Source: Auanema rhodensis (lineage: Eukaryota; Animalia; Nematoda). Taken from it: a stretch of 64,000 nucleotides of DNA. The stretch is from positions 13,330,001-13,394,000 of the forward strand of contig OZ059895.1 in assembly GCA_964057225.1 (NCBI GenBank). Reading direction: 5' to 3'. This document shows, one piece after another, positions 7,585 through 34,785 of this stretch. Under the pieces are notes generated by a model. The model had not been told where the DNA came from. It did no database searches and saw nothing but the letters and a program-made list of their open reading frames with translations. The translations under genes were made by a program, and so were the position numbers. Every line of letters begins with the position of its first letter. Position 1 is the stretch's first letter.

Positions 7585-7637
7585 AACTACCAGGTGACAC
7601 AATAAAGTGTCAATCTAGTAGAAGGAGAAAAGCAATC

Positions 7638-9589: not shown

Positions 9590-10950
9590 CTTGTTGGTTT
9601 TCCTGGAAAGGAAATTATTATACCAACGATGCGAAACTTATAAAAATATATATACAACGTGAGAGGCAATATGGGGTTGTATGCGTGACGCTTGCTAGGG
9701 GGCCAGCCTGCAGCGAATCTTCTAACGGAGAATTGCTCAATCGGGTACATACACGGGCCTGTGACCGGTGCGCCCTTTCTAGGATCAAGTTCCCATCTCT
9801 CGAATAGGCGTGAAATATACGACGGTGATCTAAGCAGTATTCCCTTTCAGTCTTTCGACAAGATTAGGTGCTCAGGCCTCGAACATTCACTTTCCCAGAC
9901 TTCTCTTGCCTATGAAAAATTACAGAAATCGCTCCCTTAACGAAATTCTGCTTCCCTGATTTTTCATGGTGAGACCACTCTAACACTTTCATTCTCGACT
10001 AATTCTGTAAAGGGATCTTCAAAATCAGGAATGCGTACGTCTTATATCAAAAATAGTGGTTGCCTCCGCTCAGTTCTCGAGACAGTCTGGTATTGCTTCT
10101 CACGGGCTACTTTTAGGATCAAAATGCAAAATTGTAAATCTTAGGTTCGGGATTCAGATAAAAAATTTCAAAATTATTTGGCTGTTTTCTGGGTTATATT
10201 AGGAAGAAGAAAAAAAATAATAGTAATAAGAGAGGGAAAAAGATAAAATTTAAAAGAAGATAAAAGAAAAATAAAATAGGAATATAGTAGGAATATAGTA
10301 GGAATATAGTACTAGTATAGAATAGTTTTGTACATAAATATATATATATAAATGAGTAATACATTTTAAAGGATAGAATAGAAATTAATGAATTTTAATA
10401 TATATAAAACAATGAATTTTTTGATGATTCATGAAAGAAATTAATTCATTTTTGATTCAAAAATTGTTTGAAACTTTATAACAAAATTTTATGAGAGATA
10501 GAATAGATTTTGATTAAAAAAACAGAAAAAGAAAAGATTGACAGAAAAAAAAAATATCGAAATACCTTTCTTTGAATGAATAAATATAAAAGAATTTCAA
10601 ATTAATTTATGATAGTTATAAACAAAGTTTTTCCTCAAAAATGAATGAAAGATCTTAGAATATGGATAAAAATCGAAATGTTTCTTTTAAATGAATGAAT
10701 ATAAAATTTCAAAATTAAGTTGTTTCAAAATATATCTTTTTAAATAAATGTATATAAGATTTCAGTATTAATTTATGAATCAAAATCAAAATAAAGTTTT
10801 TTTGAATGAATGAAATAAAGAAGAGAAAGATTTCAAATTAAATTCATATAGCATAATCGAAATATAATTCTTTAATTAGATGTATGAAAGACAACAAAAT
10901 TAAATTTATGTAGCGAAATATGGTTCTTAGAGATTCGTCGGTTATAGACG

Positions 10951-10969
10951 AATCTCGGCGGAACCTCCA
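10951..10969 (-). promoter_or_regulatory. Primer-binding site for tRNA-Gln (E1)
   Basis: TGGAGGTTCCGCCGAGATT abuts the 5' LTR and is complementary to the eukaryotic tRNA-Gln 3' end (AATCTCGGTGGAACCT-CCA). Confidence 0.85.
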
Positions 10970-11382
10970 CGTTCCATGGTGGTTCCCCAGGGTTCCGGCT
11001 GGGTAACCACATGGAATTACTTTCTTTTCTTCCAAATATAAATGATAAAGAGTATAGAGAGAAAGGTTTATTCATGATAAAGTATACAAATTACAATAAT
11101 AAAAGTTACATAATGATTCCTAGTCGCAGCCCAAAGGACTCGTAAGGAAAACTTATATAGTTTTCCTTACGAGCATAAAAAGTCGTTATATCAGGTCCGC
11201 GGAACTTGGTTCCGCTTGAATTGGGCTTTCTTTGATTAAACTTAATATGAAAAAGTGTTCGTTCTTTATTGCATTGAATTCCTGTTTCTCAAATGTAGCG
11301 TCAGCTATTTGTTTTTATAATGTTCCGTTTTATAAGCGATTGACGTTGTCAATCGCTCTACTTATAGGACACGTATGGAACA
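10970..11382 (-). repeat. E1 5' LTR
   Basis: Direct repeat of 2513-2925, adjacent to the PBS. Confidence 0.95.
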
Positions 11383-11707
11383 GTTACATCTAAATTCTTC
11401 GATGATATCAAATCTTATGAGCTCCAAATACAATAAATTAAAAAAGGTTTCACAGTTGTATAGTGTTAAAACAATGTTTGTTTCAATAGGAAATAGATAG
11501 AAACAGTAAAGTTAAGATGAAGGTTCATAAACTACTGGTTTATAACTGTAATATAGAAATAAGATTGAAGATATTTTGATGCCTTGGGTTGAGCTATCTA
11601 AGTAAAACTGCTAGAAAATTAAAAACATTTGTTACGGAAGAGATAAAATTGAAAATCAGCTGCATTGCGTACTTTCAACGTGGTATGATCGTTAAAAAAA
11701 ATTGAAA

Positions 11708-11826
11708 AGCTTACGGCACCCGGGATTCCCAAGCCGTCTCCGATCCTAGTACTAACCGGGCCCAACGTTGCTTGACTTGCCAGATCGGACGGGATGGCGT
11801 ACTTTCAACGTGGTATGGTCGTAAGC
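11708..11826 (-). rRNA. 5S rRNA (1 variant nt)
   Basis: Array copy; cctag instead of ccaag. Confidence 0.93.
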
Positions 11827-12236
11827 GAAAATATCTGATATTCAATGATTTACATACTTATCCTCGTTATTGTTTTTTTTCCAATTTCATGTTAGTTATG
11901 TAATTTTCTACGTTACATCTAAATTCCTCGATGATATCAAATCTTATGAGCTCCAAATACAATAAATTAAAAAAGGTTTCACAGTTGTATAGTGTTAAAA
12001 CAATGTTTGTTTCAATAGGAAATAGATAGAAACAGTAAAGTTAAGATGAAGGTTCATAAACTACTGGTTTATAACTGTAATATAGAAATAAGATTGAAGA
12101 TATTTTGATGCCTTGGGTTGAGCTATCTAAGTAAAACTGCTAGAAAATTAAAAACATTTGTTACGGAAGAGATAAAATTGAAAATCAGCTGCATTGCGTA
12201 CTTTCAACGTGGTATGATCGTTAAAAAAAATTGAAA

Positions 12237-12355
12237 AGCTTACGGCACCCGGGATTCCCAAGCCGTCTCCGATCCAAGTACTAACCGGGCCCAACGTTGC
12301 TTGACTTGCCAGATCGGACGGGATGGCGTACTTTCAACGTGGTATGGTCGTAAGC
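12237..12355 (-). rRNA. 5S rRNA
   Basis: Array copy. Confidence 0.95.
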
Positions 12356-12765
12356 GAAAATACCTGATATTCAATGATTTACATACTTATCCTCGTTATT
12401 GTTTTTTTTCCAATTTCATGTTAGTTATGTAATTTTCTACGTTACATCTAAATTCCTCGATGATATCAAATCTTATGAGCTCCAAATACAATAAATTAAA
12501 AAAGGTTTCACAGTTGTATAGTGTTAAAACAATGTTTGTTTCAATAGGAAATAGATAGAAACAGTAAAGTTAAGATGAAGGTTCATAAACTACTGGTTTA
12601 TAACTGTAATATAGAAATAAGATTGAAGATATTTTGATGCCTTGGGTTGAGCTATCTAAGTAAAACTGCTAGAAAATTAAAAACATTTGTTACGGAAGAG
12701 ATAAAATTGAAAATCAGCTGCATTGCGTACTTTCAACGTGGTATGATCGTTAAAAAAAATTGAAA

Positions 12766-12884
12766 AGCTCACGGCACCCGGGATTCCCAAGCCGTCTCCG
12801 ATCCAAGTACTAACCGGGCCCAACGTTGCTTGACTTGCCAGATCGGACGGGATGGCGTACTTTCAACGTGGTATGGTCGTAAGC
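12766..12884 (-). rRNA. 5S rRNA (1 variant nt)
   Basis: Array copy; gctcac instead of gcttac at the 3' end. Confidence 0.93.
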
Positions 12885-12973
12885 GAAAATATCTGATATT
12901 CAATGATTTACATACTTATCCTCGTTATTGTTTTTTTTCCAATTTCATGTTAGTTATGTAATTTTCTACGTTA

Positions 12974-13390
12974 CGTTCCATTTAGATTCTCAATGGTTCC
13001 AAGTTGAGAGATCCAAACAGACTATGAGAAGATGAGTATGATTTTAAATATAAGTGTGTAATGTAAGGTGAAATAAGAAACAAAAGATGAAATGTATAAA
13101 GGTTTATTGTTCGCATTATAATATAATTATACAAAGATTAAAGCTAGAGTTAAGAAAGAGAATATAAAGAAGATAAAGAGAAAGTAAGATAATGAGATAA
13201 TGAGATGCCTGAGTCTTGAGGACTCAGGTTTATATATCCATACAACTCCTACTCAGTTTACACAAATTGTTACAAAGCTTATAAAAAGTGCATCTAAAAT
13301 ATTCTCAGAATTGCTTAAAAACTATCTGCCTTAGTTTAATAATAGCAGCTGCCATGGTCAGCTGCTTTCCTTTGAGATATGTATGTAACA
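12974..13390 (-). repeat. E2 3' LTR
   Basis: Direct repeat of 24880-25296; sense ends TGTTACAT...ATGGAACG. Confidence 0.95.
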
Positions 13391-13574
13391 TGCCCCAACG
13401 GATACAAGTCAGCTGACCTCAGCTGTTATATGCAAATAATAATTAAGAGAGAAAAATAAAAATTAAAAAAAAAATGGCATGAGATAAAGCAAATTTTTTC
13501 AACAAACTATTGATAAAGAGAAAAAATTTTAAGAGATAGAATTTTATAAATGATTTAAACCTTTCCTCTCTTCT

Positions 13575-14219
13575 TTAATCCGCCAGTTGGTCAATTTCCT
13601 GGATCATTTCCGTCATTGATGCTAGTCCAAGCAGCTCCATTGTTCTGATGGTTTGGCTAACTGCTTTTGCCTTACTTTTTGATGCGGACATGTTGGTAGT
13701 CCTTTTTTTCAGTAGTTTTTTGATTACTACTGATAGGTCTTGCCCTATCTCTATCCACGATGCTTCTTCTTCTGTTCCGCAATTTCCTACAGCTTGTTGT
13801 GTCATCTGTGTTGTCCACGTCGGCATTGCTTTGTAGATGTCAGCTGTGGTCTGCGTTCTGGCGGGTTGTCCCAGCATTATGTGTCGGATTCTGTTCTCTT
13901 TCTGGCTGAGAGAACATCCTTCTGTCCATTTCTTTTGATGCTGGCGAAGCTCCTTCAGATCGTTTTCCTCATAGTTTTTGGTTTTCTCCTCCAATAGTTC
14001 CATCATAAATAGGATGTGCTGTGTCTTCTTTTCCAATTTGCTCGTTTGGAGGCTTATTATTGGTCCTAAGTTGGGCTTCATGCAGTTGATAGGTAGAAGA
14101 CCTTCACGAAGGTTTTCTACCTCTATCCATTCTTGTTCAATAGTGGTCGCTAGAGGGACCAGTGGTGTTGGAGTTGCGAGGAATGTAGAGAGTGTGACGT
14201 TGGCGAGAGAGGAGGTCAT
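13575..14219 (-). CDS. E2 accessory ORF3 (~214 aa from MTSSLAN), unknown function
   Basis: ATG at 14219; homologous by eye to E1 and E4 ORF3, in the same position after pol. Confidence 0.72.
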   Translation of the reverse strand: MTSSLANVTLSTFLATPTPLVPLATTIEQEWIEVENLREGLLPINCMKPNLGPIISLQTSKLEKKTQHILFMMELLEEKTKNYEENDLKELRQHQKKWTEGCSLSQKENRIRHIMLGQPARTQTTADIYKAMPTWTTQMTQQAVGNCGTEEEASWIEIGQDLSVVIKKLLKKRTTNMSASKSKAKAVSQTIRTMELLGLASMTEMIQEIDQLAD

Positions 14220-14422
14220 TTTGAGTAAGAAAAGTGTTATTGAATTTTTCTCTATCAAAATTTTCTCTTTATATAGTTTGTTTTTCAGTGATTGTTACAA
14301 TTTGTTAAAATTAAAGGATAGAAATTAGAATTTCGGTGGTTTTTGATCTATGTCTTATGTTTAATGTACTATACGAAAGAAAGAAAAATTATTTTTACAA
14401 TTCTACGATTTTTGTTAGTTAA

Positions 14423-17400
14423 TTAAAAGTTTCGTACTTGTTCTCCTTTGTTTTGCGTTGGAGATTCATTCTGCTGCTTTTTGCTTTGATCCGCTTTTCC
14501 ATGTAGTTCCAATTCTCCATTACTTCTGATTTCTTCGTCTTGTGTTTTTCTTTTGGGTTGTAGTTTAACATGATACGGGCGTGAGTTTTCATTTCCTATT
14601 CCTAGTGCTGCGGCAAGTGTAGTGTTCCAATTTTTGATTGCTGGTGAGTTTTTGTTTCTGTCCTCAAATAGCTCCTTTCTGTTTTCATTCTTGAATTGAT
14701 CTCGTAGCTTTTCGTATGTTTTTGCGTTATTATCTTCTATATCGTTTTGATTAGGACCTTCTTCTTGAGAGAAAGGTGTCAGCTGTCTGAGGTCCTCTTG
14801 AATTCTGTCGATTGTTGTTGATTCATTTTCTAATTGTATATTAGAATTTGTTATTCTTCTTGCTGTAGCAAGGTCGTCAGGTGTTTCTGAATTATGTTCA
14901 ATTTCTTCTTCGTTTACTCCTCTGTTATTCCCTGTGATAGGTAACAGTTGCGCGAGAGTATCTGGACTGCCTGTTGGGTAACAGTTGTTGTTATTTTCCG
15001 TATTATTGGTTTGTTCCCATTCATTCAGATTATTCCAACTTGCTTCTTCTTCTTCTTCTTCTTCGTTTGCTATGTCTTGGTCCTCTTCTTCCTCTTCTTC
15101 ATTATTTCTTGTTGATATAAGATTATCGTCTGGTGGAAAATAACGTATGTTATTTTTGTGAGCTTTTATAATATTTCCATCTTGGTCCGTTATGCTGATG
15201 TTGTTTCCTTCAATTGTCACTATCCGGTAAGGTCCATCTCTTCGTATTTGTAATTTGTTGCTTGGGTTCGCTCTTTGTACAAATACTCGATCTCCTATAT
15301 CCAATATTCTTTCTTTTGTCCTATGTGCTTGATCGTATTTCTGCTTCATTCTTTCTTCGTTGGTGGCAATCTTTTCCTTGACTTTTTCTTGAATATCTCT
15401 TAAGTTTTTGAGCTGATCCGTGATATTTTGTTCTTCCGGTGTTTCCAAGTTTTTGTCAATGGGTAGACGTGCTACTTGTCCAAACAAACATTCGTATGGT
15501 GATGTTTTAGTGGTGGCGTTTGGTAATCTGTTGAGTGTAAAAATAATCTTCGGAAGTATCTTATCCCAATCGTTTTGTTCGTCATTAACGTAGGCTGTTA
15601 ATGCTTCTTCGATCGTCCGATGCAATCTTTCTACTTGTCCGTTAGCGTTTTTGTAATACGGCATAGTAGTGTGGTGTGTAGTTCCAAAATTACTGCACAT
15701 AGTAGTGAAATCGTTTGAAATAAAATTAGATCCATTGTCTGTGATGATAGTAACAGGTGGTCCAAAAACATAAAAGAGATATTTTTCGATAGCTGATATA
15801 ATTTCTCCTGATGTTTGTCTGATTAGCGGAATTGCGATAATCCAATTTGAAAAAGAATCTTGAATTGAAAGAACATATCTGTTTTCTTGTTCTGTCCTAG
15901 GTAATGGTCCGAGTATATCCATGTGTACTCTTTGCCATGGTTTTGTTGATGTTGGAAAATTTTTCATTGGTTCCACCGTTGCTTCGTGAGGATTGTTCTT
16001 TCTTTTTGCACAAGCAAGACATCTGTTGATGTAGTTTGTAATGTCTTCTTGCATTCCAGTCCATGTAAATCGTCTTGATATTGAGTCCATTGTTTTGTTT
16101 ATCCCTAGATGAGCTCCGAGTGTCGGATCTTCATGAAATTTCTTCATAATTGGATTAATTATGTGTTCTTCTCGTGGTAAAATTGTTCGTGGTACTTGTA
16201 GGCTTCTTTTTGGTTTTGAGTATAGTACATCGTTGTACACAATATATCTGTCCGTCAGTTGTCGTCCAGCTGTATTGTTCTTTATTTTATCCATAGTTTC
16301 TTTTATCCAATTTGATTGATTCTGAACTGATCGAATATCTGCTATCGTGAAGGTGTTTATCTGATGAATAGTATCTTCCGCCGTTTTTCTTTCGTTTTTC
16401 TTCTTTGCTGGTGGTTTTGCTTCGTTGATTTCATTTTCAAAATATCGTGATAATGCGTCACATACACTGTTTAATTTTCCTGGTCTGTAGATAATTTCAA
16501 TATCGTATTCTTGTAAAACAATTTGAAATTTTGCTAAACGACCTATTAAATCCTTTCTAGTCATTAAACTAGTGAGTGGTCTATGGTCCGTGATAATTTT
16601 GGTTGCTGTTCCTAGTATGTAGGTGCGAAATTGTTTGACGGCGAATGTAAGAGCTAATGCTTCTACTTCTATTGGTGGATAATTCCTTTCAGCTTTGTTG
16701 AGTTTCCGACTAGCAAAAGCTATTGGATGTAATGGTTCTTGATCGTCTTTCGCTTGAAGTAGTACAGCGCAAACTGCTATCATACTTCCATCACTTTCAA
16801 TAACATATGGTCGCTTCGGGATTGGTGCTTGTAACACAGGTGCTTGAGTCAATGTTTTCTTCAAAGTATTAAAAGCAGTTTCTTCTTCTTCTGTCCATTT
16901 GAACGGAGTGTCTTTCCGAGTGAGGTTGTAGAGTGGTGTTGCTATTCCTGCAGCGTTCTTTATGAACCTTCTGAAGTAGTTTACTACTCCCATGAAAGCT
17001 CTTACTCCTGTTGTTGATTTTGGTTGGGGATAATCTTGTATTGCCTTAATTTTATGTGGGTCCGGTTTAATTCCTTCTTGTCCAACTATGTATCCTAGAA
17101 ATTTTACTTCCTTTCTTGCGAATGCGCATTTCTTCAGTTTTATTTTGAATCCTATTTGAGTTACTGCTTCCAAAACTTCTTCAATATCTTTTAAATGTGC
17201 TGTCGTAGATTCAGAGATTAACAGTAAATCATCTAGATATACGAATAGCTTGCATTTAACCATTGATTGCAGGTATCGTACTGCGTTTTGAAAAGTATGG
17301 GGTGATCCACATAATCCCATCGGCATTCGACAATATTGATAAGTTCCACTTGTTGTTGTGAAAGCTGTAAGATGACGATCTTCTTTCTTAAGAGGTATTT

Positions 17401-20400
17401 GGAAAAATCCAGATACTAAATCAAAGTTGCTGAAGATCCTTGCTCCAGCGGCCAAATCTAGGATGTCCTGTATGTTTGATATAACATATACTTGTTTCTG
17501 AGTGATTGCATTCAAAGCTCGAAAGTCCGTTACAAATCTGTAAGTTTTGTCTTTCTTCTTCACCAAAATTACTGGACTAGTTGTCATTGAGTTTGATGGT
17601 TCAATGATTCTTTGTTGTAGCATTTCTTCTATTTGTTTCTCCACTTCTTCTTGTTGGGAGAGTGGTATACGATAAGTAATTTTGAATGATGGTGTTTTTC
17701 CTGGCATGATTGGAATGGAGTGTTCAATTGGTCCTAGGAAGAGTCCGATATTTCTATCTTCGTTGAGAAACGCTTGTTTATGTAGTAAAATTATTTCTTT
17801 CAGTTGCTGTTGTTCGATTTGTGAGAAGCAGGCTTCTGAAAGGTCAAGCTCATTGATGAAATTGTCTGGGAAATATGGCAGTTGTTCTTCCCATCGAGCT
17901 TCTGGAGGTATGTATTGTCCTTCGTATTTTTCTTGGTTGTCCTTTGGTATCGCTTCTGCTATCCCTATTTCTTGATTCATTTGAATTTCGAGTGGCTGTT
18001 TGCATATGTTCGTCGCGTAAATTTGTACTCCGTATCCAGTTGGCGTAAATATAGTAGGCGTGAAAGAGAGTTTGTTGCCTGGTTTCTTACAATCTAGAAA
18101 CGCCTGTTCATAGCTTTCTGGATCGTGTACTTCTAGCGTGAGCGTTCTTGTTTCTCCTGGTCTTAGCGTTTTGTTTTCTAAGCTAACCACATATGCTTTC
18201 GTGGTCTGGTGTTCCCACGGAGATGTTTCTCGTGCTAGTGGAACATGTGTTGTGCCGATAACAATTGTTTTATCCAGCGGTCGAAGTGAGGTGTAAATTC
18301 CTTGTTGATGTAATGCTTCCATGAAGTCTATTCCAAGTAACACTGGTGCTGGACAGTAGTTATCTTCTGCTACATAAAATTTGTGTTCTGTTTCTGTTGT
18401 TCCTATTGTTATGAGGATCCTTGTGTATCCCATAAATGAGAATTTAGATTTATTCGCGACTATCGCTGTTGTTTGTTTTAGTACCATCGTTGCAGCGGGC
18501 AGTTGTTTGAAGGTGGATTCTCGCATGTATGATGCTGATGCTCCCGTGTCCCATAGTGCCTTAAAGATGTGATTGTGGATTGAAATCGGGACAAACGGTA
18601 ATTGTGATCCTCCTATGTAGTTTATGTTTTCTTTCTTCATGCTTGTAGGGAAATAAGCTTCATAAATGTGTTCAGGAATTGGTGCTGAAGGATCATACAA
18701 TGTGAGTTGACAGCTGTTGTGATGGTTGTCGACGTATGGAGCGGACGGAGAAGGATGAGATGTTTCTGTTCTTGTGTTCTCAGTTGATAGTGGTTGTAAG
18801 TATTCTGCTTCCCATTTGACATTGTTGATGGGTATCCTTGAACTACATGCGTATATTTTTATTATCCAGGTGGCGAGTGTGATTATGCCAATTGTTATGA
18901 TGATTGATCCAATGATAGCAAGTACGCGTAGTGTCCAGGTTTGAATCTTTTCCCATATTGGTGACAGAAAGTCAAACATTTTCCAAGTTATAGCTTCTTT
19001 TGTATGTTCGTAGCTGAGTAGTAAGCTGCTGGCTGCTCCTGCTGTTAGGGTAACAGGGTTCATGTTAGGAATTGATCTTTGTTTGATTACAGGTTTTATT
19101 CTTCCTGGTAAAGTAGCCTGTAGCGTTGCTAAGCTGGATCCATATGATATTGCTAGTGCCATAGGAAACGTTGATTCTGTTAGGTTGTTGAAAATGTTGC
19201 TTCCATTAAACTTGATATGTTCTAGGTTGATTGATCCTAACTCGTCGATGTATGCTGGTGATGTTACATTTATTGATTGGTTATTATTAGTCCATTGATC
19301 GTTTTCTTTCCAGGGATCCTTGATTGTGAATCCGCATGGTATGGCATGTGCCATCGGTGTGAGGTCTCTTGTACCTGGTAGGATGAACAGTTGGCCGTGA
19401 TGTTCCGTTTCGACTGGGGTTTCCAGAAAACACGTGCTGTTGACTTTGTGATCGCGGTATGTTTTTGTAATTTGAATTGGTGTGCATGGCATTACATAAA
19501 TTAGTTTATCATTTATGAATCTTGCAGATATATCCTGTCGTCGTAGCATTGTACGCATCCCTATAGTAGGATTTATTTGAAGAATAGCCCACCAGGTAAG
19601 TAGTTGTTTATTTTGTACGTGGCAGATGTTGTTTCTGTTTGTTGTGAACGTACGTATGATATCATCTTCCAGATTGGTAGTGGCATATTGTAGATGAGAT
19701 TGCGTTTCTTGTTGATGAAGATGTTCATTCCATTTTTGGACGATATCGTTCTTAGCTTTAAGGTAGTCTACGTGAGCTTTCTTACCAATATGTGATGATA
19801 TTTCTTCAGGTGTGCTGCGAGTGGTAGTGATAGATCTTTTTGTAGTTCTTGGAGGCGGTGACTTGGTGAGTGATTCTTTCCTATTGTATTCCTGGCTTGA
19901 GGTGATTGTGATTGGGTTTGTAGTAATATTGAATGTAGATTGGGGGGTGGAGAATGATTGTGTTGGTCGATGAGTGGTGAATATAGTTGTGGTTGTTGTA
20001 GGTGTTGTGGTTGTTGTTGATCTGGGTCTAGCAGTAGTAGAAGTAGTAGTAGTAGTAGTGGTAGTAGTAGTAGTAGTTGATGAAGACGTGGGTATTGTTG
20101 GTTTGGGTCTAGTTGTTGTGGATATATGTGTTTTGGGTGTGATTGTCGAAGTGATGACGTTCCTTATGGTTGTAGGCTTAGGGGTCGTGGTAGTGGTTGT
20201 AGTAGTAGTTTGTAGGGGGGTCGAAGTGCTTCTAATTGTGGTTGCAAAAGGTCGTGTTCCGGGAGTACTGATAAGGGGTAGATAATGATTATAAAATTTT
20301 TCACTATCCTCTTGTGTAATGCTATAATTTGTAGGATTTCTTTTCCGGAAGCCGTAGAATATATCGTCGCCATCGAAGATAACTGTGTAGTTTGGCAGTT

Positions 20401-23400
20401 GTAATGGTGGTAAGTTCAGTTCTTTTTCATATTTGATCCATTTCTTCATTTCTGCTTCGTATTCTTCTTTTGAATGTAGCTTCTTCGGATTATTTATTGC
20501 GTTCAGGATAATTTTTGCTTGTGCTAGTTGTTCGTACAGTTCTAAATCGTTTCGTGTCTTGGTGAGTCTTGGTTTTCTTGGTGGCATGAGTTGATATAAG
20601 TATTCTTCTAAAGATGGTGTTGTTTCTCCTGTAGCTAACGTAGTAGGTATTTCCGCAAGTGAGTAAGCAATTTCTTTCGCGATTTCATAGTAGTCTCCTG
20701 TTTTGGTTGGTAGTATCTTCTTAAAATCCTTAATTGTGATCCGTTTGCTAAGTTTATGCGTAAGTTCCTTATACGATAGATTATCGATCGCGATTTTTGT
20801 TGCTTCTCTTATTTCTGCTTCTCCTAGGGCGTGTAGAATGGCTATGTTGACGTCTTCATATTTGTGCCATATAAGACGATTTTTGATAACATCAAAATTT
20901 ATACCTAGGTATTTGAAGATTGCGATATACTTAGGTAACATATTTGTTATGTTATTGAGATTGTAATGGATGTCAAGTCTTTTCCGTTGAATATAGGTTG
21001 TATATAGTAGAATAGTTCCGGTTTTGCTGGCTGAATATCTTAGCGAGGGGTATTGATGAACTGTCAAGAATCCTTTAGGGTATTCCGTGATTGCGTGTCT
21101 TCTTGATCGTCCTAAGCTTGAGGTTGAGTTGAAGGAGATTAGAGTTCCGCTATTTGTAGTAAATATCTCTTTTTGTAAGCATGAGGAGGCTTCTTTTTCC
21201 GGTGTTTTATTGTTTAGAATAAAAGCACTTTGAATTCCGGGAATCAATATGGTGTCTTCTGATATAAAAACTTCGTGAGAGCCTAATGAAGTGTACGAGC
21301 AACTATGTTTTTCTGATGGTGGGGTCCATATGATGAGAGCGTTGTTGGTTAGGCATTGTCCTTTGTCACTGGTGCATCCGTTGTCGTTTATGAATATATC
21401 TGAGAGTACTGTATTGTCTTGTAGGCTGGTCATGTGTCCTCGTTCAGCTATGAATCTGGTACGTTGTTCGCATTCCTGTTTCCATATACCATTAGTAATG
21501 GTTGTCTCTGGGAATGGAGTTCCATAGAGTCCTGGTGCTTCTCTTTGAAGGTTGGTACCGTTGAATATTCTTTCTTTAATAGCTGACGAACATTCTTGCA
21601 GTGTTGTTGGTGAAACTTTTGCTAGTGAGACATTAGTTTCTCTGATGAAGAAAACGTCGTGAATGCAGAGTTGGTAAGTTTCAATTGCACATTTCCATGC
21701 TTCCCATTCTTTTGGTTGTAGGTTTTGGATGAACAATTCTGCTGTAGTCTTCTGGATATGGTTATTAGTTGGTGCGATGAATCGGCAAGCTGTTGGAGAT
21801 GGCGGCTCGACATATATTCCTCCTCTGTTTCCTGTGCATAACTGGTACGTTGTTTCTGCACTGCATGTGTTTATAATGAGTGCGATAATTGTGATAAAGA
21901 GGGGTAGGAATGGTGTTGATTTTCTTTTGTTGTTCGGTACTTCGTTTTCTGTGACGTTGTTGACTTGAAAACGTACTCCTGGGCTCTGTGTGCGTTCTCT
22001 ATACCGTTCCGGTCCATTGGAGGTGCTGCGCGGGCGACTTCTATAATTGTTGTATTGGCTTCGATTGTATTGAGAGGGGTATTGTTCGTGATTATTTGAT
22101 TGTCGCCGGTTGTTGTGTCCGCTATAGTTTTGGTCGCGGTTTCGATAGTATGGTCTTTCTTGGCTTCTGTTCCGTGATCTGTCGAAGTAGTTTTGTCTTG
22201 ATCCCTTATTTTGAGAGAATCGTGAGTTATGGTTCCTGTATTGGTGTTGATGAGGCCGATATTGGTTGTTGTATCTGTCCGGATATCGGTTGTGTGGTTT
22301 GCCATTGCCATTATACATCGGTTTGGTTCCTTTGAAATCCTTAGATTCGTTTCTCTGGTATTGATTGTTGTCCTTTGAGTCTCGAATGTTGAGGTTGTTG
22401 AACGACTTCTCTATATTGTTGACAAACGATGTTGGTCTATTTTGTATAAAGAGTTCTTCTCGTAAGGCCATTTCGTAAGCTTCCTCAAAGTTTGGTGGGT
22501 CTAGACGGCTAACGTGTTCGCTTATTTCGGGTCTTAGTCCCCAGGTGAAGGTGGATCGGAGCATGTTAAGCTCACTTTCGTTGTTCATGTCCATAGCCGA
22601 GTAGGCTTCGTTAGAACATCTTGTTGCAAAGCTTTGTACCGATTCCGTTGGTAATTGTTTCAAGCCATGTAGGCGGTGCATTGCTCGTTCTCTCTGTTTT
22701 TTCGGTGTGATCATTTCTGAGAGTCGCTTCTTGACATGGTCCCATCCGAGTCGCTTATCTTCGGTTGTGAGTTTTCTGTACGCTTCTCTTGCTCGATCAT
22801 CTTCTAGCAATAATTGTATGCTTTGAAGACGTTCGGGCATAGTTGTTCTTGTAGCGTTGAAGTGTTCGTCTAGGTATAGTAGATAGCGGTTGAATGGTGT
22901 TTTTCCATCGTAGCGTGGAGCTTTTATATCGCGTATGGCGGACGGAATCGCTGCTGGTTGAGGGATGATTGTAGGTGTTGGAACAGGTGCCCTTCCCGAG
23001 GTTTGCGTAAGTGGTGCGCCTTCGTCCATTGGGTCCATTCTTGGGTTAATTCTCTTGTTTTCTGCAACAAAAGTATTTGCTTGATTAGTTTGCGATGGAA
23101 GAGACGGAGATAGAGAATGCCCAGATGTAGAATGATCAATGGATGAAGGTGAGTTTCGTAGAGGTGGGGATGAGCTTACTGCGGGTGTGGTTGAAGAAAG
23201 TGCGGGCGTAGGTGATTTTTGTGTGGTTGGTGTATTGCTTCTTCTAGGGGTGGCTATTAAAGGATTGATTGGGTTGATTGTATTTGGTATGGTGTTGGTT
23301 GGGGGGTTTTGAGGGTTCCCTTTGCTTGCTATGTTTTTAGGAATAGGTTTAATGTTTGGGATAATTTTCTTTTCTAAGGTGTTTCTTTCGACTATGTCTG

Positions 23401-23623
23401 TTTTTTGTTTCTTCGTTTTTTCATGTGATTTGGGATTGGTGAATTGTTTTTGAATGCCGCGATGTCTTGGGGTATGTATTACCATTGACTTTGTTTTAAT
23501 GCTTAACTTCGCTTGTTTTGCAGAGGGGGGAGAATATGTTGCGGGCGGTTGTCTTTTTCTTCTTATAATATTTGAAGTGGCAGCAGGGTCCAGCGGAGGT
23601 TTTGGACCAGTATTGGGCAGCAT
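14423..23623 (-). CDS. E2 Gag-Env-Pol polyprotein (Gag CA, signal peptide, class III-like glycoprotein, TM, aspartic protease, RT, RNase H, integrase)
   Basis: First ATG at 23623. Gag PRYDG..LKQLPTESV..FTWGLR. Hydrophobic signal ~21857-21919. Furin RSRR ~21098-21109. TM ~18860-18925. LWDTGA ~18545. YLDD 17228-17239. RNase H IESDGS/EALA/TDH. Integrase HHCC, DILGP, TDNG, GQVER. RT-RH-IN order is Gypsy-type. Confidence 0.95.
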   Translation of the reverse strand: MLPNTGPKPPLDPAATSNIIRRKRQPPATYSPPSAKQAKLSIKTKSMVIHTPRHRGIQKQFTNPKSHEKTKKQKTDIVERNTLEKKIIPNIKPIPKNIASKGNPQNPPTNTIPNTINPINPLIATPRRSNTPTTQKSPTPALSSTTPAVSSSPPLRNSPSSIDHSTSGHSLSPSLPSQTNQANTFVAENKRINPRMDPMDEGAPLTQTSGRAPVPTPTIIPQPAAIPSAIRDIKAPRYDGKTPFNRYLLYLDEHFNATRTTMPERLQSIQLLLEDDRAREAYRKLTTEDKRLGWDHVKKRLSEMITPKKQRERAMHRLHGLKQLPTESVQSFATRCSNEAYSAMDMNNESELNMLRSTFTWGLRPEISEHVSRLDPPNFEEAYEMALREELFIQNRPTSFVNNIEKSFNNLNIRDSKDNNQYQRNESKDFKGTKPMYNGNGKPHNRYPDRYNNQYRPHQHQYRNHNSRFSQNKGSRQNYFDRSRNRSQERPYYRNRDQNYSGHNNRRQSNNHEQYPSQYNRSQYNNYRSRPRSTSNGPERYRERTQSPGVRFQVNNVTENEVPNNKRKSTPFLPLFITIIALIINTCSAETTYQLCTGNRGGIYVEPPSPTACRFIAPTNNHIQKTTAELFIQNLQPKEWEAWKCAIETYQLCIHDVFFIRETNVSLAKVSPTTLQECSSAIKERIFNGTNLQREAPGLYGTPFPETTITNGIWKQECEQRTRFIAERGHMTSLQDNTVLSDIFINDNGCTSDKGQCLTNNALIIWTPPSEKHSCSYTSLGSHEVFISEDTILIPGIQSAFILNNKTPEKEASSCLQKEIFTTNSGTLISFNSTSSLGRSRRHAITEYPKGFLTVHQYPSLRYSASKTGTILLYTTYIQRKRLDIHYNLNNITNMLPKYIAIFKYLGINFDVIKNRLIWHKYEDVNIAILHALGEAEIREATKIAIDNLSYKELTHKLSKRITIKDFKKILPTKTGDYYEIAKEIAYSLAEIPTTLATGETTPSLEEYLYQLMPPRKPRLTKTRNDLELYEQLAQAKIILNAINNPKKLHSKEEYEAEMKKWIKYEKELNLPPLQLPNYTVIFDGDDIFYGFRKRNPTNYSITQEDSEKFYNHYLPLISTPGTRPFATTIRSTSTPLQTTTTTTTTTPKPTTIRNVITSTITPKTHISTTTRPKPTIPTSSSTTTTTTTTTTTTSTTARPRSTTTTTPTTTTTIFTTHRPTQSFSTPQSTFNITTNPITITSSQEYNRKESLTKSPPPRTTKRSITTTRSTPEEISSHIGKKAHVDYLKAKNDIVQKWNEHLHQQETQSHLQYATTNLEDDIIRTFTTNRNNICHVQNKQLLTWWAILQINPTIGMRTMLRRQDISARFINDKLIYVMPCTPIQITKTYRDHKVNSTCFLETPVETEHHGQLFILPGTRDLTPMAHAIPCGFTIKDPWKENDQWTNNNQSINVTSPAYIDELGSINLEHIKFNGSNIFNNLTESTFPMALAISYGSSLATLQATLPGRIKPVIKQRSIPNMNPVTLTAGAASSLLLSYEHTKEAITWKMFDFLSPIWEKIQTWTLRVLAIIGSIIITIGIITLATWIIKIYACSSRIPINNVKWEAEYLQPLSTENTRTETSHPSPSAPYVDNHHNSCQLTLYDPSAPIPEHIYEAYFPTSMKKENINYIGGSQLPFVPISIHNHIFKALWDTGASASYMRESTFKQLPAATMVLKQTTAIVANKSKFSFMGYTRILITIGTTETEHKFYVAEDNYCPAPVLLGIDFMEALHQQGIYTSLRPLDKTIVIGTTHVPLARETSPWEHQTTKAYVVSLENKTLRPGETRTLTLEVHDPESYEQAFLDCKKPGNKLSFTPTIFTPTGYGVQIYATNICKQPLEIQMNQEIGIAEAIPKDNQEKYEGQYIPPEARWEEQLPYFPDNFINELDLSEACFSQIEQQQLKEIILLHKQAFLNEDRNIGLFLGPIEHSIPIMPGKTPSFKITYRIPLSQQEEVEKQIEEMLQQRIIEPSNSMTTSPVILVKKKDKTYRFVTDFRALNAITQKQVYVISNIQDILDLAAGARIFSNFDLVSGFFQIPLKKEDRHLTAFTTTSGTYQYCRMPMGLCGSPHTFQNAVRYLQSMVKCKLFVYLDDLLLISESTTAHLKDIEEVLEAVTQIGFKIKLKKCAFARKEVKFLGYIVGQEGIKPDPHKIKAIQDYPQPKSTTGVRAFMGVVNYFRRFIKNAAGIATPLYNLTRKDTPFKWTEEEETAFNTLKKTLTQAPVLQAPIPKRPYVIESDGSMIAVCAVLLQAKDDQEPLHPIAFASRKLNKAERNYPPIEVEALALTFAVKQFRTYILGTATKIITDHRPLTSLMTRKDLIGRLAKFQIVLQEYDIEIIYRPGKLNSVCDALSRYFENEINEAKPPAKKKNERKTAEDTIHQINTFTIADIRSVQNQSNWIKETMDKIKNNTAGRQLTDRYIVYNDVLYSKPKRSLQVPRTILPREEHIINPIMKKFHEDPTLGAHLGINKTMDSISRRFTWTGMQEDITNYINRCLACAKRKNNPHEATVEPMKNFPTSTKPWQRVHMDILGPLPRTEQENRYVLSIQDSFSNWIIAIPLIRQTSGEIISAIEKYLFYVFGPPVTIITDNGSNFISNDFTTMCSNFGTTHHTTMPYYKNANGQVERLHRTIEEALTAYVNDEQNDWDKILPKIIFTLNRLPNATTKTSPYECLFGQVARLPIDKNLETPEEQNITDQLKNLRDIQEKVKEKIATNEERMKQKYDQAHRTKERILDIGDRVFVQRANPSNKLQIRRDGPYRIVTIEGNNISITDQDGNIIKAHKNNIRYFPPDDNLISTRNNEEEEEEDQDIANEEEEEEEASWNNLNEWEQTNNTENNNNCYPTGSPDTLAQLLPITGNNRGVNEEEIEHNSETPDDLATARRITNSNIQLENESTTIDRIQEDLRQLTPFSQEEGPNQNDIEDNNAKTYEKLRDQFKNENRKELFEDRNKNSPAIKNWNTTLAAALGIGNENSRPYHVKLQPKRKTQDEEIRSNGELELHGKADQSKKQQNESPTQNKGEQVRNF

Positions 23624-24861
23624 CGTTGGTATCCTGTAAGGAAATTTGTTATATCCAACGTGTGCCAAAATAATTTTATATATAGAAAAACGTAAAGAAT
23701 AATGTTGGGTTTGTGTGCGCGATTCTTATGAAGGTAGCTAGTCTTGCAAGTAATCTCTTTACCAATATAGCTCGTCCGGGTCTAACACAGGTTTGAAACT
23801 AGTGTGCCTTTTCGAAGGGACAAGTTCTATATTGTGAAAAAGGCATGAAATGAAAGTTAATAGTTCGCCAGTCTTTTGGGACAAGGATACAAAATAGAAT
23901 TTTCGCAATCATTTCATTTTCCCAGACCTCATTAACCTATCTGAGTCACAGGTATGTCAGCTGCCTTCTGCATCCTGCTCCCTGACTCTATGATGGCGAG
24001 ACCACTCTTAGTATTTATATCAATGTGGGGCAGGTTTCAATTCAAAAATTCTCTAATTATTTCATGGGGCGTACGTCTTATCCTGAGTGTCGGCCTCCGC
24101 TCGAGTCTCTTGAGTGTCTGGCATTATTCTTAACGAGGGGGGATGGTTTTTGCGTATGAGTTAAAACTTATTGATTAATTTAATTATTTTTCGTATTTTC
24201 AGGTGCTAAGGTAATCGGAATTTGGATACGCTGCGCCTAATAAATATTTTTACTGTCGTGTTTAACACGGGATTTCTTGTTTATGAAATTACGGGGGGGG
24301 GGGGGGGGAGGGGTGGGTTTATGAGAATACAGTGTAGTAGCATAAGAATAATAGTTTTATAAACGAACATAAAGAAAATAATGAAAATATGGTATGATAG
24401 GATGATTAAGATAGTATGATAAGATGAAGATTCAGATAATATGATAAGATGATTAAGATTGAGAGGTATAGAAGCAATATTCTTTTTTATTTCTTAATTC
24501 TAAATTAATTTTATAAAGAACTTAACTATTTTTGTTCAAAAAATGTGAAAATAAACTTATAATTCTTAGAAAAGTTAATTATTGAATTTGAATAATTTTC
24601 GTATATAGGATTTTGGATAGAGAGAATGATAAATGATATAAGTACTCTTATGAATAATTGAAAATGATTTATGAGAATATAATGAATGGAAAACTGAGTT
24701 TTTGTAAATAGTTTTTGGATATAATTTTTAATAGAAAAGTTTTAGAGTTTTTAAGAAAATATTATAAGCTAACTTTAAGAGAGAGATAAGATTTTTAATT
24801 GAAAAAGAGATGTAGACGGTAGCGCTTGAGTTCCTTTACGAGATCCTGTCCAAAAGGAAGG

Positions 24862-24879
24862 ATCTCGGTGGAACCTCCA
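24862..24879 (-). promoter_or_regulatory. Primer-binding site for tRNA-Gln (E2)
   Basis: TGGAGGTTCCACCGAGAT directly after the 5' LTR. Confidence 0.88.
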
Positions 24880-25296
24880 CGTTCCATTTAGATTCTCAAT
24901 GGTTCCAAGTTGAGAGATCCAAACAGACTATGAGAAGATGAGTATGATTTTAAATATAAGTGTGTAATGTAAGGTGAAATAAGAAACAAAAGATGAAATG
25001 TATAAAGGTTTATTGTTCGCATTATAATATAATTATACAAAGATTAAAGCTAGAGTTAAGAAAGAGAATATAAAGAAGATAAAGAGAAAGTAAGATAATG
25101 AGATAATGAGATGCCTGAGTCTTGAGGACTCAGGTTTATATATCCATACAACTCCTACTCAGTTTACACAAATTGTTACAAAGCTTATAAAAAGTGCATC
25201 TAGAATATTCTCAGAATTGCTTAAAAACTATCTGCCTTAGTTTAATAATAGCAGCTGCCATGGTCAGCTGCTTTCCTTTGAGATATGTATGTAACA
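24880..25296 (-). repeat. E2 5' LTR
   Basis: Direct repeat of 12974-13390. Confidence 0.95.
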
Positions 25297-25621
25297 GTTA
25301 CATCTAAATTCCTCGATGATATCAAATCTTATGAGCTCCAAATACAATAAATTAAAAAAGGTTTCACAGTTGTATAGTGTTAAAACAATGTTTGTTTCAA
25401 TAGGAAATAGATAGAAACAGTAAAGTTAAGATGAAGGTTCATAAACTACTGGTTTATAACTGTAATATAGAAATAAGATTGAAGATATTTTGATGCCTTG
25501 GGTTGAGCTATCTAAGTAAAACTGCTAGAAAATTAAAAACATTTGTTACGGAAGAGATAAAATTGAAAATCAGCTGCATTGCGTACTTTCAACGTGGTAT
25601 GATCGTTAAAAAAAATTGAAA

Positions 25622-25740
25622 AGCTTACGGCACCCGGGATTCCCAAGCCGTCTCCGATCCAAGTACTAACCGGGCCCAACGTTGCTTGACTTGCCAGATC
25701 GGACGGGATGGCGTACTTTCAACGTGGTATGGTCGTAAGC
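25622..25740 (-). rRNA. 5S rRNA
   Basis: Array copy. Confidence 0.95.
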
Positions 25741-26150
25741 GAAAATATCTGATATTCAATGATTTACATACTTATCCTCGTTATTGTTTTTTTTCCAATT
25801 TCATGTTAGTTATGTAATTTTCTACGTTACATCTAAATTCCTCGATGATATCAAATCTTATGAGCTCCAAATACAATAAATTAAAAAAGGTTTCACAGTT
25901 GTATAGTGTTAAAACAATGTTTGTTTCAATAGGAAATAGATAGAAACAGTAAAGTTAAGATGAAGGTTCATAAACTACTGGTTTATAACTGTAATATAGA
26001 AATAAGATTGAAGATATTTTGATGCCTTGGGTTGAGCTATCTAAGTAAAACTGCTAGAAAATTAAAAACATTTGTTACGGAAGAGATAAAATTGAAAATC
26101 AGCTGCATTGCGTACTTTCAACGTGGTATGATCGTTAAAAAAAATTGAAA

Positions 26151-26269
26151 AGCTTACGGCACCCGGGATTCCCAAGCCGTCTCCGATCCAAGTACTAACC
26201 GGGCCCAACGTTGCTTGACTTGCCAGATCGGACGGGATGGCGTACTTTCAACGTGGTATGGTCGTAAGC
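26151..26269 (-). rRNA. 5S rRNA
   Basis: Array copy. Confidence 0.95.
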
Positions 26270-26679
26270 GAAAATATCTGATATTCAATGATTTACATAC
26301 TTATCCTCGTTATTGTTTTTTTTCCAATTTCATGTTAGTTATGTAATTTTCTACGTTACATCTAAATTCCTCGATGATATCAAATCTTATGAGCTCCAAA
26401 TACAATAAATTAAAAAAGGTTTCACAGTTGTATAGTGTTAAAACAATGTTTGTTTCAATAGGAAATAGATAGAAACAGTAAAGTTAAGATGAAGGTTCAT
26501 AAACTACTGGTTTATAACTGTAATATAGAAATAAGATTGAAGATATTTTGATGCCTTGGGTTGAGCTATCTAAGTAAAACTGCTAGAAAATTAAAAACAT
26601 TTGTTACGGAAGAGATAAAATTGAAAATCAGCTGCATTGCGTACTTTCAACGTGGTATGATCGTTAAAAAAAATTGAAA

Positions 26680-26798
26680 AGCTTACGGCACCCGGGATTC
26701 CCAAGCCGTCTCCGATCCAAGTACTAACCGGGCCCAACGTTGCTTGACTTGCCAGATCGGACGGGATGGCGTACTTTCAACGTGGTATGGTCGTAAGC
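26680..26798 (-). rRNA. 5S rRNA
   Basis: Array copy. Confidence 0.95.
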
Positions 26799-27208
26799 GA
26801 AAATACCTGATATTCAATGATTTACATACTTATCCTCGTTATTGTTTTTTTTCCAATTTCATGTTAGTTATGTAATTTTCTACGTTACATCTAAATTCCT
26901 CGATGATATCAAATCTTATGAGCTCCAAATACAATAAATTAAAAAAGGTTTCACAGTTGTATAGTGTTAAAACAATGTTTGTTTCAATAGGAAATAGATA
27001 GAAACAGTAAAGTTAAGATGAAGGTTCATAAACTACTGGTTTATAACTGTAATATAGAAATAAGATTGAAGATATTTTGATGCCTTGGGTTGAGCTATCT
27101 AAGTAAAACTGCTAGAAAATTAAAAACATTTGTTACGGAAGAGATAAAATTGAAAATCAGCTGCATTGCGTACTTTCAACGTGGTATGATCGTTAAAAAA
27201 AATTGAAA

Positions 27209-27327
27209 AGCTTACGGCACCCGGGATTCCCAAGCCGTCTCCGATCCAAGTACTAACCGGGCCCAACGTTGCTTGACTTGCCAGATCGGACAGGATGGCG
27301 TACTTTCAACGTGGTATGGTCGTAAGC
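27209..27327 (-). rRNA. 5S rRNA (acagg variant)
   Basis: Array copy. Confidence 0.93.
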
Positions 27328-27737
27328 GAAAATACCTGATATTCAATGATTTACATACTTATCCTCGTTATTGTTTTTTTTCCAATTTCATGTTAGTTAT
27401 GTAATTTTCTACGTTACATCTAAATTCCTCGATGATATCAAATCTTATGAGCACCAAATACAATAAATTAAAAAAGGTTTCACAGTTGTATAGTGTTAAA
27501 ACAATGTTTGTTTCAATAGGAAATAGATAGAAACAGTAAAGTTAAGATGAAGGTTCATAAACTACTGGTTTATAACTGTAATATAGAAATAAGATTGAAG
27601 ATATTTTGATGCCTTGGGTTGAGCTATCTAAGTAAAACTGCTAGAAAATTAAAAACATTTGTTACGGAAGAGATAAAATTGAAAATCAGCTGCACGGCGT
27701 ACTTTCAACGTGGTATGATCGTTAAAAAAATTTGAAA

Positions 27738-27856
27738 AGCTTACGGCACCCGGGATTCCCAAGCCGTCTCCGATCCAAGTACTAACCGGGCCCAACGTTG
27801 CTTGACTTGCCAGATCGGACGGGATGGCGTACTTTCAACGTGGTATGGTAGTAAGC
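27738..27856 (-). rRNA. 5S rRNA (1 variant nt)
   Basis: Array copy. Confidence 0.93.
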
Positions 27857-28266
27857 GAAAATATCTGATATTCAATGATTTACATACTTATCCTCGTTAT
27901 TGTTTTTTTTCCAATTTCATGTTAGTTATGTAATTTTCTACGTTACATCTAAATTCCTCGATGATATCAAATCTTATGAGCTCCAAATACAATAAATTAA
28001 AAAAGGTTTCACAGTTGTATAGTGTTAAAACAATGTTTGTTTCAATAGGAAATAGATAGAAACAGTAAAGTTAAGATGAAGGTTCATAAACTACTGGTTT
28101 ATAACTGTAATATAGAAATAAGATTGAAGATATTTTGATGCCTTGGGTTGAGCTATCTAAGTAAAACTGCTAGAAAATTAAAAACATTTGTTACGGAAGA
28201 GATAAAATTGAAAATCAGCTGCATTGCGTACTTTCAACGTGGTATGATCGTTAAAAAAAATTGAAA

Positions 28267-28385
28267 AGCTTACGGCACCCGGGATTCCCAAGCCGTCTCC
28301 GATCCAAGTACTAACCGGGCCCAACGTTGCTTGACTTGCCAGATCGGACGGGATGGCGTACTTTCAACGTGGTATGGTCGTAAGC
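28267..28385 (-). rRNA. 5S rRNA
   Basis: Array copy. Confidence 0.95.
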
Positions 28386-28795: not shown

Positions 28796-28914
28796 AGCTT
28801 ACGGCACCCGGGATTCCCAAGCCGTCTCCGATCCAAGTACTAACCGGGCCCAACGTTGCTTGACTTGCCAGATCGGACAGGATGGCGTACTTTCAACGTG
28901 GTATGGTCGTAAGC
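28796..28914 (-). rRNA. 5S rRNA (acagg variant)
   Basis: Array copy. Confidence 0.93.
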
Positions 28915-34735: not shown

Positions 34736-34785
34736 GAAAATATCTGATATTCAATGATTTACATACTTATCCTCGTTATTGTTTT

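What the first reader, a model, noticed from the sequence alone, without database searches (positions are those of the whole stretch)
14423..23623. Gypsy retroelements with a single Gag-Env-Pol polyprotein: env sits between gag and pol with flavi/alphavirus-like membrane topology
Seen: E2 and E3 each have one stop-free ORF reading Gag CA, an internal signal-like hydrophobic stretch (PFLPLFITIIALIINTCSA / PLSLTVVMAITVAIFLPCVTS), a ~1000-aa Cys-rich ectodomain with a furin site, a TM helix, then PR-RT-RH-IN. E4 shows the same order from mid-Env onward. Established: retroviruses and errantiviruses put env 3' of pol on a spliced mRNA, and usually make Pol by frameshift or readthrough. Inference: signal peptidase releases Gag, Env enters the ER, and Pol is made as the cytoplasmic tail of Env. 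Pol would then be packaged through a membrane tether at 1:1:1 stoichiometry and freed by its own protease. Three divergent intact copies argue this is a functional architecture and not a one-off accident. I cannot confirm from here that it is undescribed.
Basis: partly seen in the sequence, partly recalled or inferred. Interest (0 to 1): 0.95.

Follow-up and report, generated by a model that had tools for sequence, protein, structure and literature searches.

The report
Nematode retroelements: envelope inside one polyprotein
These worm retroelements encode capsid, a herpesvirus-gB-like envelope and their enzymes as one protein, a gene order already described in nematodes; the less familiar parts are that every copy here sits just upstream of a 5S rRNA gene and that their own protease likely cuts capsid and enzymes off predicted membrane anchors.

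Summary
Observation confirmed. E2 (14423-23623, 3066 aa) and E3 (35820-43811, 2663 aa) are stop-free ORFs reading Gag, signal-like stretch, class III (gB-type) Env, one TM, PR-RT-RH-IN; E4 matches from mid-Env. The LTRs are 99.8-100% identical with 4-bp target duplications. The order is not new. Chary & Hayashi (PMC13524379) report GAG-ENV-POL in Nematoda, Bryozoa and Platyhelminthes and credit Sacco 2022. Their nematode elements share the tRNA-Gln primer site and Env cysteine spacing, and 50 of 151 homologues have Env before Pol in one chain. Additions I did not find in the searched library: (1) an [IV]N-x-[IV] motif enriched at cytosolic junctions (39 vs 3.2 by shuffle between TM and PR; 18 vs 0.8 before the signal), a likely site for the element's own protease; (2) all four elements lie 50-90 bp upstream of 5S genes, in the same orientation; (3) a non-coding antisense RNA with at least 15 GT-AG joints, and no env-removing sense splice among the 15 of 16 joints shown; (4) a ~470-aa helical plus mucin-like insert in Env. 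New members of a known kind; mechanism untested.

The parts
14423..23623 (-). E2 single Gag-Env-PR-RT-RH-IN ORF, 3066 aa
22439..22930 (-). E2 Gag capsid region (aa 232-395); followed by an Asn/Arg-rich NC-like region with no CCHC knuckle
   Evidence: (Retrotrans_gag E=2e-4, below cut-off)
21857..21913 (-). E2 internal signal-like stretch (aa 571-589); candidate protease motif VNNV at aa 554
21098..21856 (-). E2 Env N-half (gB domains I-II-like, 10 Cys), ending at furin-type RSRR
   Evidence: fold predicted on the E3 equivalent
19814..21097 (-). E2 Env insert: helical domain (aa 843-1100) plus Thr-rich mucin-like stalk
   Evidence: no Pfam or clear fold match for the E3 equivalent
18926..19813 (-). 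E2 Env C-half (central helix, gB domains III-V-like)
18869..18925 (-). E2 transmembrane helix (aa 1567-1585)
18620..18868 (-). E2 predicted cytosolic linker: INNV (1599), INYI (1667), two PSAP motifs
15284..18619 (-). E2 Pol: protease (DTGA), RT (YLDD), RNase H, integrase
13575..14219 (-). E2 small accessory ORF (214 aa) between pol and 3' LTR; weakly related to the E4 ORF (E=0.003)
12974..13390 (-). E2 3' LTR (TG...CG ends), 89 bp upstream of a 5S gene; TSD TAAC
24880..25296 (-). E2 5' LTR, one mismatch to the 3' LTR
24862..24879 (-). E2 primer-binding site, same 12-mer as the tRNA-Gln class of published nematode elements
17392..21721 (+). Span of a spliced antisense RNA of the E2 family: 15 GT-AG joints shown, 41-1015 nt, no open frame across exons
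34786..46251 (-). E3 element: identical 337-bp LTRs, TSD AAAA, 50 bp upstream of 5S
35820..43811 (-). E3 single ORF, 2663 aa (signal 42756-42812, Env 39795-42755, TM 39738-39794)
56845..64000 (-). E4 element, cut by the window end: 3' LTR 57 bp upstream of 5S, accessory frame 57409-58254, Env C-half-TM-Pol ORF 58265-64000
2513..11382 (-). E1 non-autonomous derivative: identical LTRs related to E4's, a remnant of the E4-type pol tail, an accessory ORF, no gag-env-RT; 90 bp upstream of 5S
11383..56844 (-). Host 5S rDNA tandem array (529-bp unit) into which the elements are inserted; 42 5S matches in the window

Best explanation
E2, E3 and E4 are recently inserted nematode-type Ty3/gypsy elements with a gB-like envelope encoded between gag and pol in one reading frame, and the polyprotein is predicted to thread the ER membrane twice so that Gag and Pol stay cytosolic, each likely held by a membrane anchor until the element's own protease cuts them free. 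Steps: (1) one ORF on an RNA that covers gag-signal-env unspliced (shown; strand of the contig not determinable). (2) The internal signal opens translocation; signal peptidase cuts after it, leaving Gag anchored by the signal stretch, likely in place of a matrix domain (inferred). (3) Env is glycosylated, trimerises and is cut at a furin-type site, with a helical and mucin-like insert in the loop where gB is cleaved (fold predicted, processing inferred). (4) The single TM stops transfer, so PR-RT-RH-IN is made as Env's cytosolic tail and would be packaged by way of Env instead of by a Gag-Pol frameshift (inferred). (5) PR cuts at [IV]N-x-[IV] sites after CA, before the signal, after the TM and before PR (motif enrichment shown, cleavage untested). 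(6) Integrase likely targets the region 50-90 bp upstream of 5S genes via the Pol III machinery (positions shown, mechanism inferred).
For: ORFs and domains. Class III fusogen: profile hits to gB structures down to E=2e-18 and to rabies-type G at E=2e-6; AlphaFold model mean pLDDT 74, pTM 0.44; Foldseek top rows all gB, E~1e-11, TM-scores low at 0.17-0.29 of query. Env before Pol in one chain in 50 of 151 fetched homologues, named ones from Caenorhabditis, Auanema, Acrobeloides and Halicephalobus. Signal-like stretch in 37 of 47 and TM in 42 of 44 proteins; no second stretch of TM strength in any linker. Motif counts against 500 shuffles: after CA 13 vs 1.3; before signal 18 vs 0.8; TM-to-PR 39 vs 3.2; ectodomain 12 vs 23.5. 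P[TS]AP in 6 of 44 linkers vs 0.21. Unspliced RNA-type contig 20334-23615; 15 of 15 shown joints are antisense. LTR identity, TSDs and 5S distances of 90, 89, 50 and 57 bp.
Against: No protein-level data. Signal and TM calls are hydropathy only. The protease motif was chosen after seeing the sequences, the proteins are related, and it is present in only 10 of 36, 18 of 36 and 22 of 39 proteins at the three junctions. RH-IN junction 8 vs 3.0 equals the shuffle maximum of 8. I found no paper tying the motif to a gypsy protease. PPxY and LPxY were not above chance. The runs are only guessed to be RNA, contigs give no strand, one joint of 16 and 182 pieces were hidden, and no RNA contig shown spans TM-PR unspliced. 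Some homologues are gene models that could join exons. 5S targeting rests on one window with no genome-wide denominator.
Confidence: 0.65

Rival explanations
1. Mixed topology or leaky targeting: only some chains enter the ER; others leave Env unfolded in the cytosol or terminate early, and PR releases Gag and Pol for intracellular retrotransposition. Env is a minority product, so the particle is not built 1:1:1.
For: An internal signal after 330-570 residues may be recognised inefficiently (general knowledge). Single-ORF elements exist without recoding: DGLT-A gag fused in frame to pol (PMC6101501, passages) and Atlas virus Gag-Pol-Env (PMC9094657, passages). The protease motifs flank the whole signal-Env-TM block.
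Against: Signal, cysteines, glycosylation sequons, furin site and TM are conserved across proteins only 20-40% identical in Env, which argues that ER entry is the main route.
Confidence: 0.2
2. Env is removed at RNA level (splicing) to give an ordinary gag-pol mRNA; the full ORF serves only the env-making isoform.
For: One of 16 joints and 182 contig pieces were not displayed; contigs drop rare isoforms. E3 and E4 were not examined.
Against: All 15 displayed joints are GT-AG on the antisense strand. Sense-strand donor words are rare: 5, 5 and 1 GTRAG in E2, E3 and E4.
Confidence: 0.1
3. The 5S positions reflect accumulation or amplification in a low-recombination array end, not integrase targeting.
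For: The window was picked in an array; E1 and E2 share one site; the left end is a perfect inverted duplication; no genome to count copies elsewhere.
Against: Three distinct sites with different TSDs lie within 40 bp of a 529-bp unit, same orientation, from families only 51-78% identical in integrase. By my arithmetic that is about 1 in 700 for three independent sites.
Confidence: 0.3
4. Assembly chimera or a one-off nested insertion of a viral glycoprotein gene into gag-pol.
For: None found for E2-E4.
Against: An independent DNA contig spans Env-PR; three divergent families and 50 homologues share the order; published.
Confidence: 0.01

Closest known systems
Nematode GAG-ENV-POL HSV/gB-type Ty3/gypsy elements (Chary & Hayashi, eLife RP108449, PMC13524379; 'non-canonical nematode endogenous retroviruses', Sacco et al. 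2022)
   Same: Gene order, gB-type Env, tRNA-Gln PBS 12-mer identical to Clat_4 and Ctro_1, and Env cysteine spacing 8,25,40,32,7,18,40 vs 8,25,41,31,7,17,40 in Clat_4 (counted by eye). P0157 (C. brenneri, contig 12007 nt, the size listed for Cbre_errantivirus_2) is one 2593-aa Gag-Env-Pol chain. From memory, Sacco's abstract says 'continuous gag-env-pro-pol ORF' and mentions a small extra ORF; that paper was not readable.
   Different: A ~470-aa Env insert against a median gap of 68 in 94 proteins; helical-domain hits only in E2, E3 and 7 of 151 homologues, of which the three named are Auanema. The eLife main text has no occurrence of 'polyprotein', 'splic', 'frameshift' or 'rDNA', so processing, antisense RNA and 5S siting are not discussed there.
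Atlas virus and other nematode Belpaoviridae (PMC9094657)
   Same: One stop-free polyprotein with Gag, Pol and Env, and identical LTRs.
   Different: BEL/Pao RT, Env last, class II phlebovirus-like fusogen. Here RT has YLDD, Env is central and class III. Two env-last homologues checked were BEL/Pao.
Ty3 (yeast) and DGLT-A (Dictyostelium), Pol III-targeted gypsy elements (PMC6101501)
   Same: Gypsy LTR elements at a fixed distance upstream of Pol III genes; DGLT-A has gag in frame with pol.
   Different: No env; about 15 bp upstream of tRNA genes. Here 50-90 bp upstream of 5S genes in an animal, and targeting is only inferred.
Hepacivirus core-E1 polyprotein processing (PMC5402940, abstract start seen in listing)
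   Same: Works like it: capsid ends in the envelope's signal peptide and stays anchored after signal peptidase cleavage.
   Different: Unrelated RNA virus; release there is by signal-peptide peptidase. Here an upstream viral-protease site is proposed, and the fusogen is gB-like.

Membership tests
Ty3/gypsy (Metaviridae) LTR element | LTRs, PBS, TSD | tested here: met
   LTR pairs 99.8-100%, TGG-starting PBS, 4-bp TSDs; ends are TG/CG...CG, not TG...CA
Ty3/gypsy (Metaviridae) LTR element | PR-RT-RH-IN order with gypsy-type domains | tested here: met
   no Peptidase_A17 or DUF1759 hits, which BEL/Pao homologues show
Ty3/gypsy (Metaviridae) LTR element | RT placement against GyDB/Repbase references | not testable with these tools
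   No reference set on hand; the tree holds only 23 fetched rows
Nematode GAG-ENV-POL gB-type elements (NERV) | env between gag and pol | tested here: met
   definition
Nematode GAG-ENV-POL gB-type elements (NERV) | HSV/gB-type Env flanked by signal and TM, C1 cysteine pattern | tested here: met
   spacing compared by eye with the rows
Nematode GAG-ENV-POL gB-type elements (NERV) | RT groups with nematode members | tested here: met
   E2-E4 sister to C. japonica P0009 and C. nigoni P0024 (100/99), inside a 96/96 clade with C. brenneri, Acrobeloides and Halicephalobus rows; midpoint root only (names)
Nematode GAG-ENV-POL gB-type elements (NERV) | Chromadorean nematode host | tested here: inconclusive
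   Host not named; nearest named homologue is Auanema sp. JU1783, 58%; intron sizes are nematode-like
Nematode GAG-ENV-POL gB-type elements (NERV) | Exact NERV criteria of Sacco 2022 (continuous ORF, accessory ORF) | tested here: inconclusive
   Features are present but the criteria are recalled; paper not held
Pol III-targeted LTR elements (Ty3/DGLT-A-like) | Most genomic copies at a fixed distance upstream of Pol III genes | tested here: inconclusive
   4 of 4 in the window; no genome; no related loci found
Pol III-targeted LTR elements (Ty3/DGLT-A-like) | IN or RNase H binds TFIIIB/TFIIIC | not tested
   No host factor sequence in hand
Flavi/alphavirus-type structural polyprotein | Class II fusion protein | tested here: not met
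   Class III hits at the top; the likeness is in processing logic only

The most novel reading that the evidence does not exclude
A nematode lineage of enveloped gypsy elements that homes to 5S rDNA through the Pol III machinery, and that solves Pol packaging without frameshifting: Gag hangs on Env's signal peptide, Pol on Env's tail, and one protease motif frees both at maturation. A host-spliced antisense RNA would keep it in check. This would be a retroelement assembly route different from Gag-Pol co-assembly, and a Pol III-targeted enveloped LTR element in an animal.
Probability: 0.3. Interest if true: 0.7.

Novelty: new member of a known kind. Interest (0 to 1): 0.42.

Why it matters
The gene order is published, but how such a polyprotein is processed and packaged is not addressed in the one paper I could read on it. 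The junction motif, the single-TM topology and the P[TS]AP motifs give exact, testable predictions for a membrane-tethered route of Pol packaging. The consistent siting upstream of 5S genes would extend Pol III-directed integration, known from yeast and amoebae, to enveloped animal elements and point to a safe-harbour integrase. The spliced antisense RNA is a lead on how the host silences them.

Tried and rejected
Own genome not held. Sacco 2022 not readable by DOI or PubMed id. Literature searches: gag-env-pol wording found only PMC13524379; NERV terms gave noise or nothing; 5S/nematode/LTR targeting gave 0 papers with all five terms, and none of 15 listed had 'upstream of 5S'; the rDNA-TE review passages name only fish examples for animal 5S spacers; the antisense-splicing search gave 10 unrelated listings; the Ty3 protease-site search gave one paper without the sites. 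Earlier scan notes: none. Related loci: none in metagenome or viral contigs; an LTR-PBS motif scan gave 18 loci, 0 of 18 with element proteins or the 5S unit. No run on record as RNA. Insert domain: no Pfam, no viral fold match at E<=0.001, best Z 4.7 among 48,161 chains, Atlas DUF8422 at 0.94 but low recognition; none accepted. An antisense protein was rejected: exons carry stops and do not chain. Selection for antisense splice donors was not accepted: E2 35 vs 20 (above all 300 shuffles), E4 20 vs 12.8 (inside range), E3 7 vs 14.8. PPxY and LPxY late domains were not above chance.

Full report
Setting. The window is a 5S rDNA tandem array (529-bp unit, 42 5S matches on the minus strand) interrupted by four LTR elements, all on the minus strand. 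E2 spans 12974-25296, E3 34786-46251, E4 runs from 56845 past the window end, and E1 spans 2513-11382. LTR pairs differ by 0, 1 and 0 bases in E1, E2 and E3. Target duplications are 4 bp, and the primer site is the 12-mer that published nematode elements list as tRNA-Gln. No genome is held; the nearest named homologue is from the nematode Auanema sp. JU1783.

Observation. E2 (3066 aa) and E3 (2663 aa) are stop-free and read Gag, hydrophobic stretch, Env, TM, PR, RT, RNase H, IN; E4 matches from the Env C-half. E2 and E3 are 37% identical in Env and 70% in RT. Four public runs list no indel within the E2 ORF, and a DNA contig spans Env to PR. Of 31 listed differences in the ORF, 18 are silent and none is a stop, against 22% silent at random; only 40 of 81 differences were displayed.

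What the middle region is. A 64-row Env profile hits herpesvirus gB structures (best E=2e-18) and rabies-type G. The AlphaFold model of the E3 ectodomain (pLDDT 74, pTM 0.44) matches gB in the PDB and mononegavirus, chuvirus and herpesvirus glycoproteins among viral models. TM-scores are low because about 470 aa is an insert: after the furin-type site come a helical domain and a Thr-rich stalk. The gap is 466-472 aa here against a median of 68 in 94 proteins. The helical domain has no accepted match.

Is it known? Yes. Chary & Hayashi (PMC13524379; I read the abstract, section 5 part 1, section 6 part 1, sections 14 and 22, term passages, 30 of 36 nematode rows of supplement 1 and 15 rows of supplement 2) state that elements in Nematoda, Bryozoa and Platyhelminthes carry only gB-type Env, arranged GAG-ENV-POL, and credit Sacco et al. 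2022. I saw only the title of Sacco; that it describes a continuous ORF is recalled. Figures were not readable and may bear on topology. Membership tests: the same PBS 12-mer as Clat_4 and Ctro_1, near-identical Env cysteine spacing (by eye), and RT grouping with Caenorhabditis proteins (23 rows with RT over 170 aa). A phmmer search with E3 Env gave 286 hits, of which the best 150 were listed. With P0001, 50 of 151 have Env before Pol in one chain, 5 after, and 96 show no gypsy Pol hit (fragments or other lineages). P0157, on a contig of the size listed for the published Cbre_errantivirus_2, is a single 2593-aa Gag-Env-Pol chain.

How it likely works. A signal-like stretch precedes Env in 37 of 47 proteins, and a TM precedes PR in 42 of 44, with no second TM-strength stretch in the linker (hydropathy only, window elements included). 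Two passes put Gag and Pol in the cytosol. Signal peptidase would leave Gag anchored, as with hepacivirus core (abstract start). An [IV]N-x-[IV] motif is enriched where a viral protease would need to cut: after CA (13 vs 1.3 by shuffle; 10 of 36 proteins), before the signal (18 vs 0.8; 18 of 36) and between TM and PR (39 vs 3.2; 22 of 39). It is depleted in the lumenal ectodomain (12 vs 23.5) and not enriched in the RT or IN cores; RH-IN is borderline (8 vs 3.0, shuffle maximum 8). The motif was picked after viewing the sequences, the proteins are related, and no cleavage is shown. P[TS]AP late-domain-like motifs occur in 6 of 44 linkers against 0.21; PPxY and LPxY do not exceed chance.

RNA. 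No run is on record as RNA. Three guessed-RNA runs from one study cover E2, with an unspliced contig across gag-signal-env. They show 16 joints that are absent from the DNA run among those displayed; 15 were displayed. All 15 are GT-AG on the plus strand, antisense to the element, mostly 41-78 nt, and the exons have no chained open frame. This is a non-coding spliced antisense RNA of the E2 family; it may come from another copy. No env-removing sense splice was seen, but contigs cannot exclude a rare one, and no displayed RNA contig spans TM-PR unspliced.

Insertion site. The 3' LTR ends lie 90, 89, 50 and 57 bp upstream of a 5S start, all in the gene's orientation. That is three distinct sites within 40 bp of a 529-bp unit, about 1 in 700 by my arithmetic. 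Ty3 and DGLT-A target about 15 bp upstream of tRNA genes (PMC6101501, passages). Two searches and review passages gave no nematode case. Without a genome or related loci this is suggestive only.

Verdict. These are new members of a known kind, with testable additions on processing, 5S siting and antisense RNA. Interest 0.42; most novel reading probability 0.3, interest 0.7 if true.

Noticed in passing
window 3115-7356 (-), inside E1: A 1413-codon frame with an FtsJ-like methyltransferase (Pfam E=6e-16) sits between E1's identical LTRs, after a pol-tail remnant and accessory ORF. By eye it resembles an alpha-like RNA virus replicase fragment with an OTU-like motif (recalled, not tested): a possible virus-gene capture by a non-autonomous element.
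   Followed up: partly
window 1-2001 and 2470-4470: A perfect 2001-bp inverted duplication holding E1's 3' part and LTR around a truncated 5S unit; a real palindrome or an assembly artefact.
   Followed up: no
window 7883-8485, 13575-14219, 57409-58254 (-): A small accessory ORF between pol and the 3' LTR in E1, E2 and E4 (E1/E4 30% identity, E=1e-20; E2/E4 E=0.003); no Pfam at E<=0.01 for E1 and E2. E3 has no frame of 200 aa there.
   Followed up: partly
window 17392-21721 (+): Spliced non-coding antisense RNA over env-pol, with an alternative acceptor at one intron.
   Followed up: partly
window 43812-44567 (-): E3's frame is open for 252 codons upstream of the first ATG, resembling E2's long basic and Pro/Ser-rich N-terminal region; a non-AUG start is possible.
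   Followed up: no
LTR ends of E1-E4: LTRs end in ...GGAACG (TG...CG or CG...CG) instead of the usual TG...CA.
   Followed up: partly
5S unit, e.g. window 25297-25825: Each spacer holds a ~29-bp repeat of the 5S gene's 5' end just after the terminator.
   Followed up: no
window 24110-24880: Coverage in the guessed-RNA runs falls to near zero over E2's 5' leader while DNA coverage is flat; could be outron or leader removal, but a contig gap proves nothing.
   Followed up: no
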